64,000 bases of DNA from an uncultured Oscillospiraceae bacterium. Lineage in GTDB: Bacteria; Bacillota; Clostridia; Christensenellales; CAG-138. The stretch covers positions 1,859 through 65,858 of the forward strand of contig CAZBBX010000009.1 of NCBI GenBank assembly GCA_964490325.1, read 5' to 3'. Of the stretch, positions 32,586 to 37,653 are shown in pieces. Every line of letters begins with the position of its first letter. Within the stretch, counting starts at the first letter, position 1. The notes beneath the pieces were generated by a model. That model saw nothing but the letters and a program-made list of their open reading frames with translations, was not told the DNA's origin and did no database searches. The translations under genes and the position numbers were made by a program.

Positions 32586-32609
32586 AGCAACATCGCTTTT
32601 TTCAAATTT

Positions 32610-32634
32610 CGAGGGGCGCAGACCCCTCTTTTTG
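32610..32634 (+). repeat. left direct repeat = terminator hairpin of the mscS-like gene (GAGGGG-cgcaga-CCCCTC-TTTTTGT)
   Basis: GAGGGGCGCAGACCCCTCTTTTT is repeated identically at 36957-36979. Marks the left border of the AT-rich island. Confidence 0.9.
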
Positions 32635-32678
32635 TTTACTTGCGGAGCAGCAGATGACTAATGTAATAGGGATTTCGA

Positions 32679-32707
32679 TTGACAAATAGCGTGTTACAAC
32701 GTAAAAT
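32679..32707 (+). promoter_or_regulatory. sigma70 consensus promoter inside the island (TTGACA-17-TAAAAT)
   Basis: TTGACA at 32679-84, 17-nt spacer, TAAAAT at 32702-07. It lies about 300 nt upstream of the 1305-aa ORF. Confidence 0.55.
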
Positions 32708-33013
32708 ATAGATAGAAAGATAACGTAAAATGAGTGTTTAGTTTATAATTACTTTAGTAATTGAACGCGGTAATACAGCAAATGGGTGGGTTATGCTGAT
32801 ATGTTGCAAGCGGATACTACGGTGCCATAATCGGAAGGATTATTTGAGGAAGGGAAAAAGCCGACCGATGTATGCCTTCTGGAAATGTTATTGGATATAG
32901 AAATCTTGAATTAGGAGCCGTATCTCGATGAGATTCTCCAAGTTCAATACACGATCAATGAGTAGTGCGTATGCATAAATTAGCAACGCTGATTATCGGA
33001 AAGGGGACATAGT

Positions 33014-36000
33014 ATGGGGGTATCTGACGGACAATACGCTCCGGAACGTGTCGAGTTGAAGGGATATCTCGCTGAATTCAGGGATGCATTGGAAGAGGAA
33101 ATCAGAGATATCGAGAAGAATGGCCAGTCTATAACATCGCTTGCGGGAGGAAGGAGAATCGGGAACCGTGGGCTTGAGTTTTGGTATCGATTTAGCGTTG
33201 AATATGCTCCCTCAATTCCGGCCGATACACCTGCTACGCTATTGATTGGAAGGGATCGATTTGATGTAACAGTTATCAGCTTTGAAGAGAATTCGATCAC
33301 AATCTCCTCTACAGTGCAACTGCCCGATCATATTGGACGTGCGCAACTTGAGAATGGTGCAACAGAATTGATGCGGCGACTAATCAAACGTATAGAGGAA
33401 AATGCAACCAAGAAAAATCCAGCCGGGGAACACATGCTTGATTGTAAGGACGGTGTTTATCCCGCCAAGCAGATACGTTCACATGATAATTTGGTTTTTG
33501 ATCCCGTCTATAACGAAGAACAGAAGCGAGCAATAAAAACCGCACTTGAGTATGATATTACATATATTTGGGGACCACCAGGAACTGGGAAAACCATGGT
33601 AATTGGTCGGATTGCCGGAGAATTGTTCCAACGGGGGCGTTCTGTACTGGTGGTCTCTCATACGAACACAGCGGTAGATGGTGCAATCGAAAAAACGGAT
33701 GAAGAGTATTCTAAGCGGCATACAACGGATGCCGCCGATTATCCAATTCTTAGATTAGGGACTCCTTCCAGATTGCTTCCCGAGCGAGTATTGCTTAAGA
33801 CGCATGTCACGAAGCTGGGAGAAAAGCTGGTAGAAAAGAAGCAAAAGCTTGAAAATGAACAAGCAAAAAAGAATGCCGAGATTGGCAGGATGCTGGATTT
33901 ACTGAAAAAAGATACTTGGGTCAAGGGCAATAAATTAGGACAAATTAAAGAGACGCTATATAATATCGCAAATCTTGAGAAGCAAGAAAGTGACATCAAG
34001 CAAAGAATAGAGAGCATTAACACAGAACTTCAACTGATAAAGGAGAATTGTCCTAAATATAGGGAGTATTGCGCGTTAGCAAAAGATTATTCGATATTGG
34101 AGAAAGAATATCGGTCTGCCTGTGATCGGTTATCTGAGGCAGAAACCATAATAGAGGAATCACCACGTTGTATACAGGAAGCCCTTGATGAAGTGAAGAA
34201 ACATGATATATATACGGCGCTGCGAGAGAAAGAAGAAACGCATATGTCGATACAGTTTCTAAATAAAGAGATATCAAAAGCAATTAGCAATATAGAAAGG
34301 CTCTCTTCTGAAAAAAACCAAATAGACGTTCGAAGAAACGAAGCTACACAAAAAATTGCAAAATACGAATTAAAGAGTTCTTTTGCAAAGGTATTTTCCG
34401 GAAAAGGTGCAATAAACGAAGCGCGTAGTTGCATGCAAGAATCAGAGATCCGTTTACAGCAGATTGAGTCTGAACTTCAGCGCACGCTAGAATTGGAACA
34501 AAGGTACAAAGATGAGATCAATGAATTATCAATTCTTAAGGAGCAGATTAAGGCTGTTAAACCTTCTAACACAGTATCATATTGGGAAGGTGAAGCGGAT
34601 ACGTTACAAAAAAAGAATAAGAAGGCAAAAGAAGAGAGAGAAGCGCTCTTATTATCCAAAAGCAGATTGGAGGATCGACTGCCTAAACTTGAAGCGCAAT
34701 GTAATGCAGCCAAAGTTCCTTTTGATTCGTTCAAAGAACTTGATAAGGATCGCCAAACAGCAGAAGGGGGGCTAAAGAGAATAAAAGACACCATTATGCG
34801 CGCACACAGTAGGTGTCAACAGCAACTTAGTGAAGAATACTCTCAGTGCTCTGCTTTTTCTGATATTGCTAAGGGAGGATCGAACAAGGAACTATTTGAC
34901 ATTTTGTGTACTCAGCTAAATATGGTTCGGAATGAAGTGAAAGGATGCAATCCGGAAGAACTTCAGAAACATATAGCTCAATTAGAAAAGGAACTGAATT
35001 CTGTTTCCAAACAGATGGACGAGATTAGGGAGAAATTGCTGGAGCTGGAAAAACAAGCCGTTATGAAAGCAAGCATTATTGGCTGCACATTGGCAAAATC
35101 GTATTTAAGTGACGTATTGCGCCAAAGAACTTTTGATACGGTTATACTTGATGAGGCATCGATGGCATCAATCCCTGCACTCTGGTGTGCCGGTTACCTT
35201 GCTGTAAATTGTTTTGTGATCGTTGGTGATTTTCTTCAGCTTCCGCCCATTGTGTTAGCATCAACACCTATGGCACGTAAATGGCTTGGAAAGGACATTT
35301 TCTATCATAGCGGCATGCAGGCAAAGGCGAAAGGCACGAATGAAATACCCGTAAATTTCGTGATGCTCGATAGACAGTATCGCATGGAATCTGACATAGC
35401 AGACATATCAAACATGTATTATGGACAGTATAAAAGGCTAAGATCTGATGATATAGCAACATGCAGAATTGAAGGACGTCAAAACTTCTACAAGTGGTGT
35501 TCCGAGAAGGAGAATGCCCCCCATGTTCACCTGATTGATACGGAAAGCCTTCATGCATGGGTTACGGGCGTTCGCAGACCAAAAGGTCATAGCCGACTAA
35601 ATTGCTTTTCCGCCGCGGTCGATGTTGATTTAGCGTTTAGTTTGCTGAAAAATAAACTTCTTGCACTTGATCCCAATACCGCAAAACCAGTAACAGAATC
35701 ATCGATTCTTATTGTGGCGCCATACAAACCGCATGTAAAACGGCTCAGTAAGTTAATTGAACTAGAGTATCGGAATCGCGGCTTCAAAGAAGACCTAAAC
35801 TATATTCGTGCCGGGACCATTCACAGTTTTCAGGGAAGCGAAGCTGATATTGTAATATTTGATCTTGTGATTGATGAACCACACTGGAAGGCGAATTTGT
35901 TTATGACGGAATCGGGTATTAATGATGATCTTCGAAAGATGTTTAATGTGGCAATTACAAGAGCAAAGTATCAATTGTTCATTGTGGGTAATTTTGCATA

Positions 36001-36931
36001 TTGTCAAAAACATGCAAAAAATAACGCCTTGTCCGACTTGCTCAATAAGCTTATTCTCAAAAATAGACTAGAAAAGATCGATGCAAAACAACTGTTTCCC
36101 AACATTACATTTTCTAGACAAACCGATGTGTTATGTACCAATATCCATGCCTATAAGCATATTCTTTGCCGTGAAGCGTCTTTTGATGCATACTTTATGG
36201 AGGACATTCGCAGCTTCAAACAACGTTTGATAATATATTCCCCGTTTATCACCGAAAGTCGCCTGTGCTGCCTACTTCCACATTTTGCCGATGCGGTGTC
36301 TGCAGGGAAGCAAATCATTGTTGTTACGAAAACGGTATCAGAGCGTAATAAAGGCGAAGTGGGGTCGTATCAGAAATGTGAGGAGGAGTTGCGCAGCATT
36401 GGTGTGAGCGTACTTCATAAAAAGGGAATGCACGAAAAGTTGATTTTCGTAGATAGTGAAGCGTTGTGGATCGGTTCATTGAATGCATTGAGCTATACTG
36501 GCTTGACTGGTGAAATCATGTATCGACTAGAAGACGCAACTCAAACGAAAGAACACGAAGATATCTATTATATTGAGAGTATTTGTGATGCGGTGGATCA
36601 TAGCTACGAACAGAAATGTCCTATTTGTAATAATGAAATGGTTATTCGAGATTGCAGCGATGGCGGAATTTATTGGAAGTGTATTAACTGTGACTATTCA
36701 AGAAACTATCTACAACAGTACCCGAAGGATGGAATTATGCGTTGTAAATGTGGAGCTGAATATGTTTTCTCCATGAAAAAAGAACCAAGGTGGGTTTGTT
36801 CCAAGGATCCACATCACTACCAAACAATACACAGAAGTGATCTTCTACTAAATAAGATGGCAGCACTAATACCAACAAAGGCTGACAGAGAGAGGGTTAA
36901 TGCATACTTTGACAGCCATAAGGGGGAGTGA
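33014..36931 (+). CDS. Upf1/DNA2-like SF1 helicase with coiled-coil insertion, fused to a PLD-family (single HKD) nuclease domain and two zinc ribbons; candidate single-gene anti-phage defence protein (Mokosh type II-like architecture)
   Basis: 1305-aa ORF with an AAGGGGA RBS. Helicase motifs in order: GPPGTGKT (33572-33595), VLVVSHTNTAVD, ILDEAS (DEAS 35150-35161), VIVGDFLQLPP, LDRQYRM, TIHSFQGSEADIVIFD, FNVAITRAK. HKD motif HEKLIFVD-x6-GSLN (36431-36484). CPIC-x17-CINC (36617-36691) and CKC-x15-C-x4-HH (36743-36817). Confidence 0.9.
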   Translation: MGVSDGQYAPERVELKGYLAEFRDALEEEIRDIEKNGQSITSLAGGRRIGNRGLEFWYRFSVEYAPSIPADTPATLLIGRDRFDVTVISFEENSITISSTVQLPDHIGRAQLENGATELMRRLIKRIEENATKKNPAGEHMLDCKDGVYPAKQIRSHDNLVFDPVYNEEQKRAIKTALEYDITYIWGPPGTGKTMVIGRIAGELFQRGRSVLVVSHTNTAVDGAIEKTDEEYSKRHTTDAADYPILRLGTPSRLLPERVLLKTHVTKLGEKLVEKKQKLENEQAKKNAEIGRMLDLLKKDTWVKGNKLGQIKETLYNIANLEKQESDIKQRIESINTELQLIKENCPKYREYCALAKDYSILEKEYRSACDRLSEAETIIEESPRCIQEALDEVKKHDIYTALREKEETHMSIQFLNKEISKAISNIERLSSEKNQIDVRRNEATQKIAKYELKSSFAKVFSGKGAINEARSCMQESEIRLQQIESELQRTLELEQRYKDEINELSILKEQIKAVKPSNTVSYWEGEADTLQKKNKKAKEEREALLLSKSRLEDRLPKLEAQCNAAKVPFDSFKELDKDRQTAEGGLKRIKDTIMRAHSRCQQQLSEEYSQCSAFSDIAKGGSNKELFDILCTQLNMVRNEVKGCNPEELQKHIAQLEKELNSVSKQMDEIREKLLELEKQAVMKASIIGCTLAKSYLSDVLRQRTFDTVILDEASMASIPALWCAGYLAVNCFVIVGDFLQLPPIVLASTPMARKWLGKDIFYHSGMQAKAKGTNEIPVNFVMLDRQYRMESDIADISNMYYGQYKRLRSDDIATCRIEGRQNFYKWCSEKENAPHVHLIDTESLHAWVTGVRRPKGHSRLNCFSAAVDVDLAFSLLKNKLLALDPNTAKPVTESSILIVAPYKPHVKRLSKLIELEYRNRGFKEDLNYIRAGTIHSFQGSEADIVIFDLVIDEPHWKANLFMTESGINDDLRKMFNVAITRAKYQLFIVGNFAYCQKHAKNNALSDLLNKLILKNRLEKIDAKQLFPNITFSRQTDVLCTNIHAYKHILCREASFDAYFMEDIRSFKQRLIIYSPFITESRLCCLLPHFADAVSAGKQIIVVTKTVSERNKGEVGSYQKCEEELRSIGVSVLHKKGMHEKLIFVDSEALWIGSLNALSYTGLTGEIMYRLEDATQTKEHEDIYYIESICDAVDHSYEQKCPICNNEMVIRDCSDGGIYWKCINCDYSRNYLQQYPKDGIMRCKCGAEYVFSMKKEPRWVCSKDPHHYQTIHRSDLLLNKMAALIPTKADRERVNAYFDSHKGE

Positions 36932-36956
36932 GTGGTATTACTGATTGCCTACAGAG

Positions 36957-36983
36957 GAGGGGCGCAGACCCCTCTTTTTTTGT
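36957..36983 (+). repeat. right direct repeat = second copy of the terminator hairpin (GAGGGG-cgcaga-CCCCTC-TTTTTTTGT)
   Basis: Identical core to 32610-32632. It also serves as the terminator of the island gene. Confidence 0.9.
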
Positions 36984-37031
36984 GCGGCGGCGGCAGAGGG
37001 ACGGCGGGGAGAAGGCGCTGCTAAAAAAACA

Positions 37032-37060
37032 TTGACAAACGACAAAAAATATGGTTAAAT
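37032..37060 (+). promoter_or_regulatory. promoter (TTGACA-17-TTAAAT) upstream of the XRE-cupin regulator
   Basis: Hexamers at 37032-37 and 37055-60. Confidence 0.5.
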
Positions 37061-37113
37061 CCTGCTTGTTGGTTTAGTGAATGTAAACTTTATGTTTAGA
37101 AAGGGTTGACCGC

Positions 37114-37653
37114 ATGGAGATCGGCGAAAAGATCAAAAGGCTGCGCTTGCGCTTGGGTCTGACGCAGGAGGAGCTTGCGGCTCGAACGGAGCTGACCAAA
37201 GGCTTTATCTCGCAGCTGGAGCGCGACATCACCTCGCCCTCCATTGCAACGCTTATGGACATTTTAGAGGCGCTCGGCACGGACATCAGCAGCTTTTTCA
37301 GCGAACGCGTGGACGAAAAGGTGGTCTGGCCCGCCGAGGACATGTTCCTCAAGGAGGACGAAGACGCGGGGCTCACCATCCGTTGGGTGGTGGCAAGCGC
37401 GCAAAAGAACGGCATGGAGCCGATCTTTGTGACGCTGCAAAGCGGCGCGAGTACGCAGCAAAGCGATCCGCACGAGGGCGAGGAGTTTGGCTACGTCCTA
37501 AGCGGCACCGTTACGCTGATAGACGGCGATACGCGCTATCGCGTCAAAAAGGGAGACGGCTTTTATCTGCGCCCCAAGGGGGTACACTACTTGGTAAACA
37601 GCGGCAAGCGGCAGGCAGAGGTGCTGTGGGTCAGCGCGCCGCCCTCATTCTGA
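37114..37653 (+). CDS. XRE-family HTH + cupin domain transcriptional regulator (PuuR-like)
   Basis: [41 protein letters not shown], with a C-terminal cupin ([16 protein letters not shown]). Precedes potABCD. Confidence 0.85.

What the first reader, a model, noticed from the sequence alone, without database searches (positions are those of the whole stretch)
33797..35077. ~430-aa coiled-coil segment inserted inside the helicase core between motif Ia and motif II
Seen directly: Walker A and motif Ia lie at aa 187-222, but the DEAS box does not appear until aa 713. The intervening stretch is almost proline-free and dominated by K/E/Q/L heptad-like runs. Examples are KLVEKKQKLENEQAKKNAEIGRMLDLLKK, EIRLQQIESELQRTLELEQRYKDEINELSILKEQIK and HIAQLEKELNSVSKQMDEIREKLLELEKQ. 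A Gly-containing break (SSFAKVFSGKGAINEA, aa ~455-470) sits close to its midpoint. Inference: this is an antiparallel Rad50/SMC-like coiled-coil arm with an apex near aa 460, projecting from RecA domain 1. It would be far longer than the 1B/1C stalk insertions I know from Upf1-family helicases. It could act as a ruler, a dimerisation arm or a sensor, as in Lamassu/SMC-type defence proteins.
Basis: inference. Interest (0 to 1): 0.6.

Follow-up and report, generated by a model that had tools for sequence, protein, structure and literature searches.

The report
Coiled-coil arm inside Mokosh-like helicase
A 1305-residue helicase-nuclease, probably an anti-phage defence protein, has a roughly 28-nm two-stranded helical arm growing out of its motor domain; the arm looks real and its family is widespread, but similar arms have been reported in related defence helicases and its job is untested.

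Summary
ORF 33014-36931 (+) has Walker A at aa 187-194, motif Ia at 211-222 and DEAS at 713-716. The stretch between them (aa 261-685) is proline-poor and rich in E/K/Q/L.

Several in-silico lines indicate one intramolecular antiparallel coiled-coil hairpin with its tip at aa 454-463:
- AlphaFold2 predicts it all-helical (pLDDT 94.6 when folded alone).
- Fold searches return only long antiparallel coiled coils such as Rad50, MukB, Smc, chemoreceptors and prefoldin.
- Hydrophobicity repeats every 3.45-3.55 residues.
- Covariation peaks on the antidiagonal centred at aa 456-460.
- Shorter relatives appear to lack matched pieces of both strands.

The arm occupies the position of Upf1 domain 1C and is best read as an expansion of it. 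The Walker A to motif II spacing is 526 aa, against about 142 in Upf1. Across relatives this spacing falls into classes of about 160, 298, 429 and 525 aa.

The protein has the architecture of Mokosh type II (Upf1-like helicase plus a single-HKD PLD nuclease) with two added zinc ribbons. It sits alone on a low-GC island.

Helical or coiled-coil insertions after Walker A are published for CoCoNuT CnuH helicases. This scan has also noted Mokosh-like coiled-coil helicases in at least 31 other genomes. The arm's function remains inference.

The parts
33014..36931 (+). Whole gene: 1305-aa Upf1-like SF1 helicase, coiled-coil arm, single-HKD PLD nuclease and two zinc ribbons
   Evidence: ORF; translation; Pfam AAA_11, AAA_12, PLDc_2; PADLOC MkoA 8e-55 and MkoC 2e-46; Foldseek hits to Upf1, SETX, IGHMBP2, DNA2
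33065..33400 (+). aa 18-129: helix, beta-barrel, helix. Likely the counterpart of the Upf1 stalk plus domain 1B
   Evidence: DSSP on the AF2 model gives H18-35, E40-113, H115-129. Assignment to 1B rests on position and the whole-model Upf1 hits, so it is inference.
33572..33679 (+). Walker A (aa 187-194) and motif Ia (aa 211-222) of RecA1
   Evidence: Sequence; invariant columns; aligned to Upf1 GPPGTGKT
33794..35068 (+). aa 261-685: the coiled-coil arm, an intramolecular antiparallel hairpin at the domain 1C position
   Evidence: AF2 all-helical, pLDDT 83-89 in the full model and 94.6 alone; fold hits; 3.5-residue periodicity; covariation
33809..34372 (+). Ascending strand, aa 266-453 (helices 270-305, 308-345, 347-408, 413-453)
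   Evidence: partner map from covariation
34373..34402 (+). Apex, aa 454-463, inside a conserved tip motif (Y451, E452, K454, K459, F461, K464)
   Evidence: Lowest pLDDT of the arm; antidiagonal covariation centre at 456-460; conservation peak
34403..35068 (+). Descending strand, aa 464-685 (helices 464-514, 521-565, 568-613, 624-642, 647-685). It carries about 30 extra residues around 608-646.
   Evidence: The last helix aligns to the Upf1 1C helix.
34172..34585 (+). Conserved 'joint': aa 387-415 (E393, K396, H397, L403) is inferred to face aa 498-524 (Y498, P517, W524) about 45-60 residues below the tip. The stated range also spans the apex that lies between the two segments.
   Evidence: Conservation peaks; top covarying pairs 393-524, 400-517, 396-524
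35150..35161 (+). Motif II (Walker B) DEAS, aa 713-716
35348..35992 (+). RecA2 (AAA_12), aa 779-993
   Evidence: Pfam PF13087, 8.8e-24
36158..36565 (+). Single-lobe PLD nuclease domain, aa 1049-1184. Its one HxK(x4)D motif is at aa 1140-1147, followed by GSLN.
   Evidence: PLDc_2 scores 25.0 bits against a cut-off of 27; DrmC and MkoB hits; invariant H1140, K1142, D1147, G1154, S1155, N1157; one alpha/beta lobe in the model
36617..36817 (+). Two zinc ribbons, aa 1202-1268
   Evidence: Invariant Cys/His columns; weak Zn_ribbon_Top1 hit
32611..32633 (+). Left copy of a 23-nt terminator-like hairpin repeat that bounds the low-GC island
   Evidence: Read directly; GC drop at 32600-37200
36957..36979 (+). 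Right copy of the same 23-nt repeat

Best explanation
Residues 261-685 form one intramolecular, antiparallel, two-stranded coiled-coil hairpin. About 188 residues go up and about 222 come down, with the tip at aa 454-463. If straight, it would be about 28 nm long (188 x 0.148 nm, my estimate).

The hairpin is rooted in RecA1 of a Upf1-like SF1 helicase, between motif Ia and motif II. This is the site of Upf1/Sen1 domain 1C (the 'prong'), and the arm is best read as a large expansion of that domain.

The host protein is a stand-alone, horizontally acquired helicase-nuclease with the Mokosh type II architecture, so it is most likely an anti-phage or anti-plasmid enzyme.

The mechanism is inferred, not shown. 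The arm appears to be a rigid element of set length with a conserved Lys-rich tip and a conserved mid-arm joint. These sit at a fixed distance from the edge of the helicase that leads during 5'-3' translocation. The PLD domain has only one HKD motif, so nuclease activity needs a second copy in trans. I think the likeliest role (about 30%) is that the arm controls or scaffolds target-dependent pairing of two molecules, or docking of a partner. That would license the nuclease only once the helicase has engaged foreign nucleic acid.
For: Structure:
- AF2 of aa 1-1200 (68-sequence alignment) gives 261-685 as all helix, pLDDT 83-89.
- AF2 of aa 255-695 alone (113 sequences) gives mean pLDDT 94.6 and pTM 0.68, with the minimum at aa 455-464.
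- Foldseek hits for the arm are Rad50, MukB elbow, chemoreceptor, Smc coiled coil, dynein stalk and JetC.
- VIA-align hits are PrgA (Z 12.7), MukB elbow (11.3) and chemoreceptor (11.3; 306 of 309 residues aligned). Aa 411-515 superposes on prefoldin, CHMP4B and seryl-tRNA-synthetase hairpins at 1.5-2.5 A.
- Hydrophobic period is 3.45-3.55 in 8 of 9 helices.

Covariation (180 sequences, effective number 153):
- The antidiagonal peak lies at i+j = 912-919, robust z up to 3.6.
- All five ascending segments have their best partner on one hairpin path: 413-453 with 461-502 (z 5.2), 381-408 with 509-537 (z 3.6), 347-380 with 538-572, 308-345 with 569-607, and 266-305 with 642-681 (z 3.0).

Length:
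- The insert is 425 aa in most close homologues.
- Walker A to motif II spacing falls into classes of about 298 (n=19), 429 (n=21) and 525 (n=63) among 108 representatives. Bacillaceae relatives form a further class of about 160.
- Shorter classes lack matched pieces of both strands (47 vs 46 aa; 105 vs 124 aa) and keep the tip module.

1C position: the last arm helix aligns to the Upf1 1C helix, and Upf1 spacing is about 142 aa.

Host protein:
- PADLOC MkoA and MkoC hits; Upf1-family fold.
- Single HKD with invariant catalytic residues.
- Low-GC island.
- No conserved neighbour gene in 27 related loci.
- In type II Mokosh, Walker A and PLD mutants lose defence (10.1101/2022.05.11.491447).
Against: - No coordinates or contact maps were available. 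The geometry is inferred from secondary structure, fold-search ranges and covariation.
- AF2 readily builds hairpins from long helices.
- VIA Z-scores of 10-13 lie within the range the tool itself calls common for helical models.
- Covariation z-values are modest (2.3-5.2). They would look the same for an antiparallel intermolecular pairing.
- Gap placement in low-identity coiled coil is ambiguous. Only about half of the short-form sequences give the clean three-part HMM pattern.
- The arm may be bent or folded at its breaks (346, 409-412, 515-520, 566-567, 614-623, 643-646) rather than straight.
- Function: E. coli type II Mokosh behaves as a monomer in mass photometry (10.1101/2025.07.10.664194), so any pairing is not constitutive.
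- Canonical MkoC arms show no detectable sequence similarity to this arm.
Confidence: 0.72

Rival explanations
1. The insert is helical but packs into a compact multi-helix bundle, or an arm folded back at an elbow. It would then be a globular regulatory domain on RecA1 rather than an extended rod.
For: There are six helix breaks with conserved non-heptad residues (P347, S412, P517, W524, F615). Fold hits include the MukB elbow and the folded cohesin elbow. pTM is only 0.58-0.68.
Against: The best partner of every ascending segment lies on a single antiparallel path. There is no second set of contacts such as a four-helix bundle would give. Near-complete alignments exist to straight hairpins (chemoreceptor, 306 of 309 residues). 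The breaks on the two strands lie at matched distances from the tip (42 vs 51, 107 vs 102, 147 vs 150 residues).
Confidence: 0.15
2. The two strands pair between two molecules (a domain-swapped antiparallel dimer), so the arm is a constitutive dimerisation element that assembles the two-HKD active site.
For: A single HKD motif requires a dimer for catalysis, as established for Nuc- and Zucchini-type PLD nucleases. Covariation cannot distinguish intra- from inter-chain antiparallel pairing.
Against: Both ends of the insert must return to adjacent strands of RecA1 (ILRLG before it, IIGCT after it), which a hairpin satisfies most simply. AF2 folds the single chain with very high confidence. E. 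coli type II Mokosh is monomeric at 132 kDa by mass photometry (10.1101/2025.07.10.664194).
Confidence: 0.08
3. The arm is a true homologue of SMC/Rad50/Lamassu arms, making the protein an SMC-type defence ATPase.
For: Weak NCBIfam hits to archaeal SMC-related protein (4.7e-5) and SMC (1.6e-3), and to PADLOC JetC (9.6e-3), all inside the insert. Structural hits to Rad50, Smc, MukB and JetC.
Against: The ATPase is an SF1 RecA-type helicase, not an ABC head. There is no hinge domain or CxxC hook at the tip. The weak hits fall far below curated cut-offs and are what shared coiled-coil composition would produce.
Confidence: 0.02
4. The insert is a neutral spacer or low-complexity expansion with no specific role.
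For: It has the lowest sequence conservation in the protein (0.47). Related Bacillaceae proteins lack the arm.
Against: Length is held to about +/-1 residue across 45-57% identity. Length classes are discrete. Heptad phase is conserved. The tip, joint and base carry conserved motifs.
Confidence: 0.03

Closest known systems
Mokosh type II (MkoC), Millman et al. 2022 (bioRxiv 10.1101/2022.05.11.491447)
   Same: One polypeptide with an N-terminal COG1112/Upf1-like helicase and a C-terminal PLD nuclease, acting as a single-gene unit. PADLOC MkoC 1.8e-46 and MkoA 8.1e-55. The MkoC profile itself has about 400 positions between the Walker A region (about 245-288) and motif II (about 668-709). MkoC-like proteins in the same class have Walker A to motif II spacings of 292-477 aa that are proline-poor and rich in E/K/Q.
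   Different: The HMM match is only partial: 157 bits here against about 950 bits for genuine MkoC loci. The arm shows no detectable sequence similarity to canonical MkoC arms. This protein has a longer spacing (526 aa), an N-terminal stalk and barrel, and two C-terminal zinc ribbons. Defence has not been tested.
Domain 1C ('prong') of Upf1, Sen1/SETX and IGHMBP2
   Same: Same insertion site between motif Ia and motif II of RecA1. The last arm helix aligns to the Upf1 1C helix. The whole-protein fold matches Upf1, SETX, IGHMBP2 and DNA2.
   Different: Upf1 has about 142 aa between Walker A and motif II; this protein has 526. 1C is a small helical subdomain lying on the nucleic acid, not a rod.
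CnuH helicases of type II/III CoCoNuT systems (Bell et al., eLife 2024, PMC11090510)
   Same: [quoted passage not shown] They also have an OB/stalk module and work with nuclease effectors, including PLD. The authors propose that the insertion couples the helicase to the effector.
   Different: No McrBC-like CnuB/CnuC genes and no separate wHTH-effector CnuE gene lie nearby. Here the effector is fused.
SMC, Rad50, MukB and JetC arms
   Same: An intramolecular antiparallel coiled coil inserted between Walker A and Walker B of a P-loop ATPase. The length is conserved, and both strands seem to change together. These are the top structural matches.
   Different: The ATPase fold differs (SF1 RecA rather than an ABC head). 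There is no hinge or zinc hook, and no kleisin or Mre11 partner. The arm is about 190 residues per strand, compared with roughly 300-350 in SMC proteins (my recollection).

Membership tests
Upf1-like SF1B helicases (Pfam AAA_11/AAA_12, COG1112) | Helicase motifs I, Ia and II plus a RecA2 domain, with family-level HMM and fold matches | tested here: met
   AAA_11 8.7e-35 and AAA_12 8.8e-24, both above their cut-offs. Upf1 7e-18 by sequence. Foldseek Upf1, SETX and IGHMBP2 at 1e-19 to 1e-20.
Upf1-like SF1B helicases (Pfam AAA_11/AAA_12, COG1112) | Accessory domains on RecA1: a barrel (1B) on a helical stalk before Walker A, and 1C between motifs Ia and II | tested here: inconclusive
   The model has helix 18-35, barrel 40-113 and helix 115-129 before Walker A, and the arm sits at the 1C site. 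I could not superpose the barrel on 1B by itself.
Mokosh type II (MkoC) | Upf1-like helicase and PLD nuclease in one polypeptide, with intact Walker A and HxK(x4)D motifs | tested here: met
   GPPGTGKT at 187-194. The HxK(x4)D motif (sequence HEKLIFVD) at 1140-1147 with GSLN at 1154-1157, invariant in 68 sequences. PLDc_2 scores 25.0 bits, just under the 27-bit cut-off. DrmC 2.8e-7.
Mokosh type II (MkoC) | Full-length match to the MkoC profile at the level of recognised members | tested here: inconclusive
   156.8 bits in two partial stretches (profile about 251-609 and 839-1122), against 951-957 bits for MkoC loci L001 and L002. The MkoA profile scores higher (184.6 bits). PADLOC's own thresholds were not available.
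Mokosh type II (MkoC) | Protects cells from phage | not testable with these tools
   Needs a plaque assay in a heterologous host.
SMC/Rad50-type ATPases (including Lamassu LmuB and Wadjet JetC) | ABC-type head split by the coiled coil | tested here: not met
   The ATPase is an SF1 helicase with two RecA domains.
SMC/Rad50-type ATPases (including Lamassu LmuB and Wadjet JetC) | Hinge domain or CxxC zinc hook at the apex | tested here: not met
   The apex at 454-463 is a 10-residue turn with a short helix. It has no Cys pair and no globular domain.
SMC/Rad50-type ATPases (including Lamassu LmuB and Wadjet JetC) | Long intramolecular antiparallel coiled coil | tested here: met
   (in silico only).
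CoCoNuT CnuH | Conserved linkage to McrB-like CnuB and McrC-like CnuC genes | tested here: not met
   The neighbours are an MscS channel, an HTH-cupin regulator and an ABC transporter. No neighbour is conserved across 27 related loci.
CoCoNuT CnuH | Large helical or coiled-coil insertion after Walker A in a UPF1-like helicase | tested here: met
   The feature is as described in PMC11090510.

The most novel reading that the evidence does not exclude
The arm is a convergently evolved, SMC-like molecular ruler in an SF1 helicase. Its stepwise lengths (about 0, 80, 140 and 190 residues per strand) would set the distance between the translocating motor and a conserved Lys-rich tip module (Y451, K454, K464). 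The tip would bind a specific target or a second protomer. Tip engagement would be passed down the coiled coil to license the single-HKD nuclease. This would be a sensing principle not yet described for Mokosh or any Upf1-like helicase.
Probability: 0.2. Interest if true: 0.7.

Novelty: new variant of a known kind. Interest (0 to 1): 0.42.

Why it matters
Mokosh is a common anti-phage system, and I found no paper in the library searched that establishes how it works. Its relatives Upf1, MOV10 and Zucchini act in eukaryotic RNA surveillance and the piRNA pathway.

A length-calibrated coiled-coil arm growing from the 1C 'prong' suggests how such enzymes could couple translocation to nuclease licensing. 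The conserved tip and joint, together with natural short, medium and long versions, give ready-made experiments such as arm-length swaps and tip mutants.

This remains a structural detail of a known kind of system, and comparable insertions have already been noted in CnuH helicases.

Tried and rejected
- Complex prediction with two copies of the arm (alignment A3) returned 'no answer' with score 0.00. It is neither support for nor evidence against arm-arm pairing.
I examined neighbourhoods through the search for related loci instead.
- Model coordinates are not exposed, so I could not measure arm length, bending, or contacts with the PLD domain.
- Mirror symmetry of the conservation profile gave only weak peaks (r 0.46-0.48 at i+j = 910-914 and 957-961, about 1.8 SD above the mean over the sums tested). 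I do not count it as evidence.
- Many of the top individual covarying pairs involve highly conserved columns (393, 524, 608) and may reflect phylogeny. I relied on segment-wise antidiagonal sums instead.
- SMC/Rad50 homology was rejected (see rival explanations).
- Literature searches for a Mokosh structure or a description of its coiled coil found none in the library searched. Preprint 10.1101/2025.07.10.664194 models type II Mokosh as a monomer, and the word 'coiled' does not occur in its text.
- No tRNA gene lies in the window, and no integrase-like domain was found among the eight neighbouring ORFs I scanned.
Full report
**Observation**

The finding's coordinates (33797-35077) correspond to aa 262-688 of a 1305-aa ORF at 33014-36931 on the + strand.
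- Walker A (GPPGTGKT) is at aa 187-194, motif Ia at 211-222 and DEAS at 713-716. All three are invariant or nearly so in 33 and in 68 homologues.
- The insert has 1.4% Pro, 2.8% Gly and 33% E+K+Q.
- With a home-made heptad score, 36% of 28-residue windows in the insert exceed the 95th percentile of shuffles with the same composition. Elsewhere in the protein the figure is 0-2%.
- Hydrophobicity averaged over 180 aligned homologues has its dominant period at 3.45-3.55 residues in 8 of 9 predicted helices. At most 1% of shuffles reach this.

**The host protein**

- Pfam finds AAA_11, AAA_12 and a just-sub-threshold PLDc_2.
- PADLOC finds MkoA (8e-55) and MkoC (2e-46). NCBIfam gives partial IGHMBP2-family and PLuB helicase hits.
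- The closest solved relatives by sequence are Upf1, DNA2, SETX/Sen1 and IGHMBP2. The closest by fold are Upf1, SETX, IGHMBP2, DNA2, Aquarius and ZNFX1.
- The PLD domain is a single lobe with one HxK(x4)D...GSxN motif at aa 1140-1157, invariant across the family. Two zinc ribbons follow it.
- The gene lies alone on a low-GC island (GC 0.37-0.47 against about 0.60). The island sits between an MscS-type channel gene and an HTH-cupin regulator gene with an ABC transporter operon downstream. A duplicated 23-nt terminator-like hairpin bounds it.
- Across 27 related loci, no neighbouring gene is shared by more than three. The gene therefore behaves as a single-gene unit, as type II Mokosh does (10.1101/2022.05.11.491447).

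**Structure of the insert**

AlphaFold2 on aa 1-1200 (pLDDT 83.3, pTM 0.58) predicts aa 261-685 as helices 270-305, 308-345, 347-408, 413-453, 456-461, 464-514, 521-565, 568-613, 624-642 and 647-685. Folded alone (aa 255-695, 113-sequence alignment), the arm reaches pLDDT 94.6 and pTM 0.68. Its only dip in confidence away from the chain ends is at aa 455-464.

Coordinates are not exposed, so I inferred topology in other ways.

1. *Fold searches.* Foldseek returns only long antiparallel coiled coils: Rad50, MukB elbow, chemoreceptor cytoplasmic domain, Smc arm, dynein stalk and JetC. VIA-align gives PrgA (Z 12.7), MukB elbow (11.3) and chemoreceptor (11.3; 306 of 309 residues aligned). Aa 411-515 superposes on simple helical hairpins (prefoldin, CHMP4B, seryl-tRNA-synthetase arm) at 1.5-2.5 A. 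By the tool's own caution, these Z-scores show a shared arrangement, not homology.

2. *Covariation.* I used APC-corrected mutual information on 180 long-class sequences (effective number 153). Summed along antidiagonals, it peaks at i+j = 912-919, a fold-back centre at aa 456-460 (z up to 3.6). Taken separately, each of five ascending segments finds its best partner on the same hairpin path:
   - 413-453 with 461-502 (z 5.2)
   - 381-408 with 509-537 (z 3.6)
   - 347-380 with 538-572 (z 2.3)
   - 308-345 with 569-607 (z 2.4)
   - 266-305 with 642-681 (z 3.0)

   The shift of about 30 in the sum at the base matches an extra segment in the descending strand (about 608-646).

3. *Helix breaks.* Breaks on the two strands lie at matched distances from the tip: 42 vs 51, 107 vs 102 and 147 vs 150 residues.

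**Length behaviour**

- In 33 homologues at 45-57% identity, the H264-G690 segment is 425 aa in most, with a range of 415-426. Sequence identity there is the lowest in the protein.
- Among 108 cluster representatives with both motifs, Walker A to motif II spacing falls into discrete classes: about 298 (19), about 429 (21) and about 525 aa (63).
- MAFFT places the missing residues of the shorter classes on both strands in similar amounts. The medium class lacks 363-409 against 493-525 plus 557-569 (47 vs 46 aa). The short class lacks 311-415 against 486-570 plus 605-643 (105 vs 124 aa).
- An HMM of the long class matches many short-form proteins in three pieces: ascending base, a separately significant tip module (about 405-506, E down to 3e-11) and descending base. 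Other short-form sequences align ambiguously, so this line of evidence is suggestive only.
- Bacillaceae relatives (for example Priestia megaterium) lack the arm altogether, with spacing of about 160 aa, close to Upf1.
- Conservation within the arm peaks at the base, at a mid-arm joint (E393, K396, H397, L403 inferred to face Y498, P517, W524), at the tip (Y451, E452, K454, K459, F461, K464) and near 605-615.

**Relation to known helicase anatomy**

In the phmmer alignment to Upf1, Walker A and motif II are about 142 residues apart, against 526 here. The last arm helix (647-685) aligns to the helix of Upf1 domain 1C that leads into the strand before motif II. The arm is therefore an expansion of 1C.

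The N-terminal helix, barrel and helix (aa 18-129) occupy the position of the Upf1 stalk and domain 1B. This assignment is inference.

**Relation to known systems**

- *Mokosh type II.* The architecture is the same. The MkoC profile itself has about 400 positions between the Walker A region and motif II, and MkoC-like proteins in the same bacterial class have proline-poor spacings of 292-477 aa. However, this protein matches the MkoC profile only partially (157 bits against about 950). Its arm also has no detectable sequence similarity to canonical MkoC arms.
- *CoCoNuT CnuH.* Bell et al. (PMC11090510) describe 'a large helical insertion' with predicted coiled coils after Walker A in UPF1-like CnuH helicases. 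They propose that it couples the helicase to nuclease effectors. The general feature is therefore published.
- *This scan.* Earlier notes report Mokosh-like helicases with coiled-coil inserts in at least 31 other genomes. One of them (e1-2995107) appears to be a member of this family.
- *Distribution.* The family is spread across Clostridia, Bacteroidales, Chloroflexota, Planctomycetota, Verrucomicrobiota, Pseudomonadota, Bacillaceae, Nitrospira and one Methanocellaceae archaeon.

**Mechanism**

What is shown in silico: an intramolecular antiparallel coiled coil of about 188 residues per strand (about 28 nm if straight, my estimate), with conserved length, heptad phase, tip and joint.

What is inferred:
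- In Upf1-like helicases, 1C lies at the edge that leads during 5'-3' translocation. This is my recollection of the Upf1 and Sen1 structures.
- A single-HKD PLD needs a second copy for catalysis, as established for Nuc- and Zucchini-type enzymes.
- From these two points, the arm probably sets the geometry for, or gates, target-dependent pairing of two molecules or docking of a partner. That would license the nuclease.
- E. coli type II Mokosh is monomeric at rest (10.1101/2025.07.10.664194). This fits regulated pairing but not constitutive pairing.
- I give the functional reading about 30% and the structural reading about 85%.

**Verdict**

The feature is a family trait of a divergent variant of a known kind of system. 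Interest is moderate.

Noticed in passing
window 32611-32633 and 36957-36979: The same 23-nt GC-rich hairpin followed by a T-run (GAGGGGCGCAGACCCCTCTTTTT) occurs at both edges of the low-GC island (about 32600-37200). The single-gene island is thus bracketed by a duplicated terminator-like stem-loop. No tRNA gene is in the window, and none of the neighbouring ORFs I scanned had an integrase-like domain.
   Followed up: partly
window 36158-36817 (aa 1049-1268): The PLD domain has only one HKD motif and a single lobe, so catalysis should need two copies. A low-confidence linker (aa 1031-1046) joins it to the helicase. Two zinc ribbons with invariant Cys/His residues follow it.
   Followed up: partly
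L072, L073, L062 (Priestia megaterium, Rossellomorea marisflavi, Neobacillus sp.): These Bacillaceae relatives (26-32% identity) keep the helicase core but lack the arm. Their Walker A to motif II spacing is about 160 aa, close to Upf1. They could serve as natural arm-less controls.
   Followed up: partly
L013 875-1300, L014 5522-5923, L015 5507-5932: In three close homologue loci, a small Xre-type HTH_3 gene lies directly upstream of the helicase-nuclease gene. In this window the same position is a leader of about 380 nt with no such ORF.
   Followed up: partly
L049 (uncultured Methanocellaceae archaeon): A homologue with about 30% identity, covering query residues 1-1191, is present in an archaeal MAG. 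The family therefore crosses the bacteria-archaea boundary.
   Followed up: no
window 33014-33523 (aa 1-170): In the AF2 model the N-terminal region is helix 18-35, a six-strand beta-barrel at 40-113 and helix 115-129. This layout resembles the Upf1 stalk plus 1B barrel rather than an unknown sensor domain. I did not test it by a separate fold search.
   Followed up: partly
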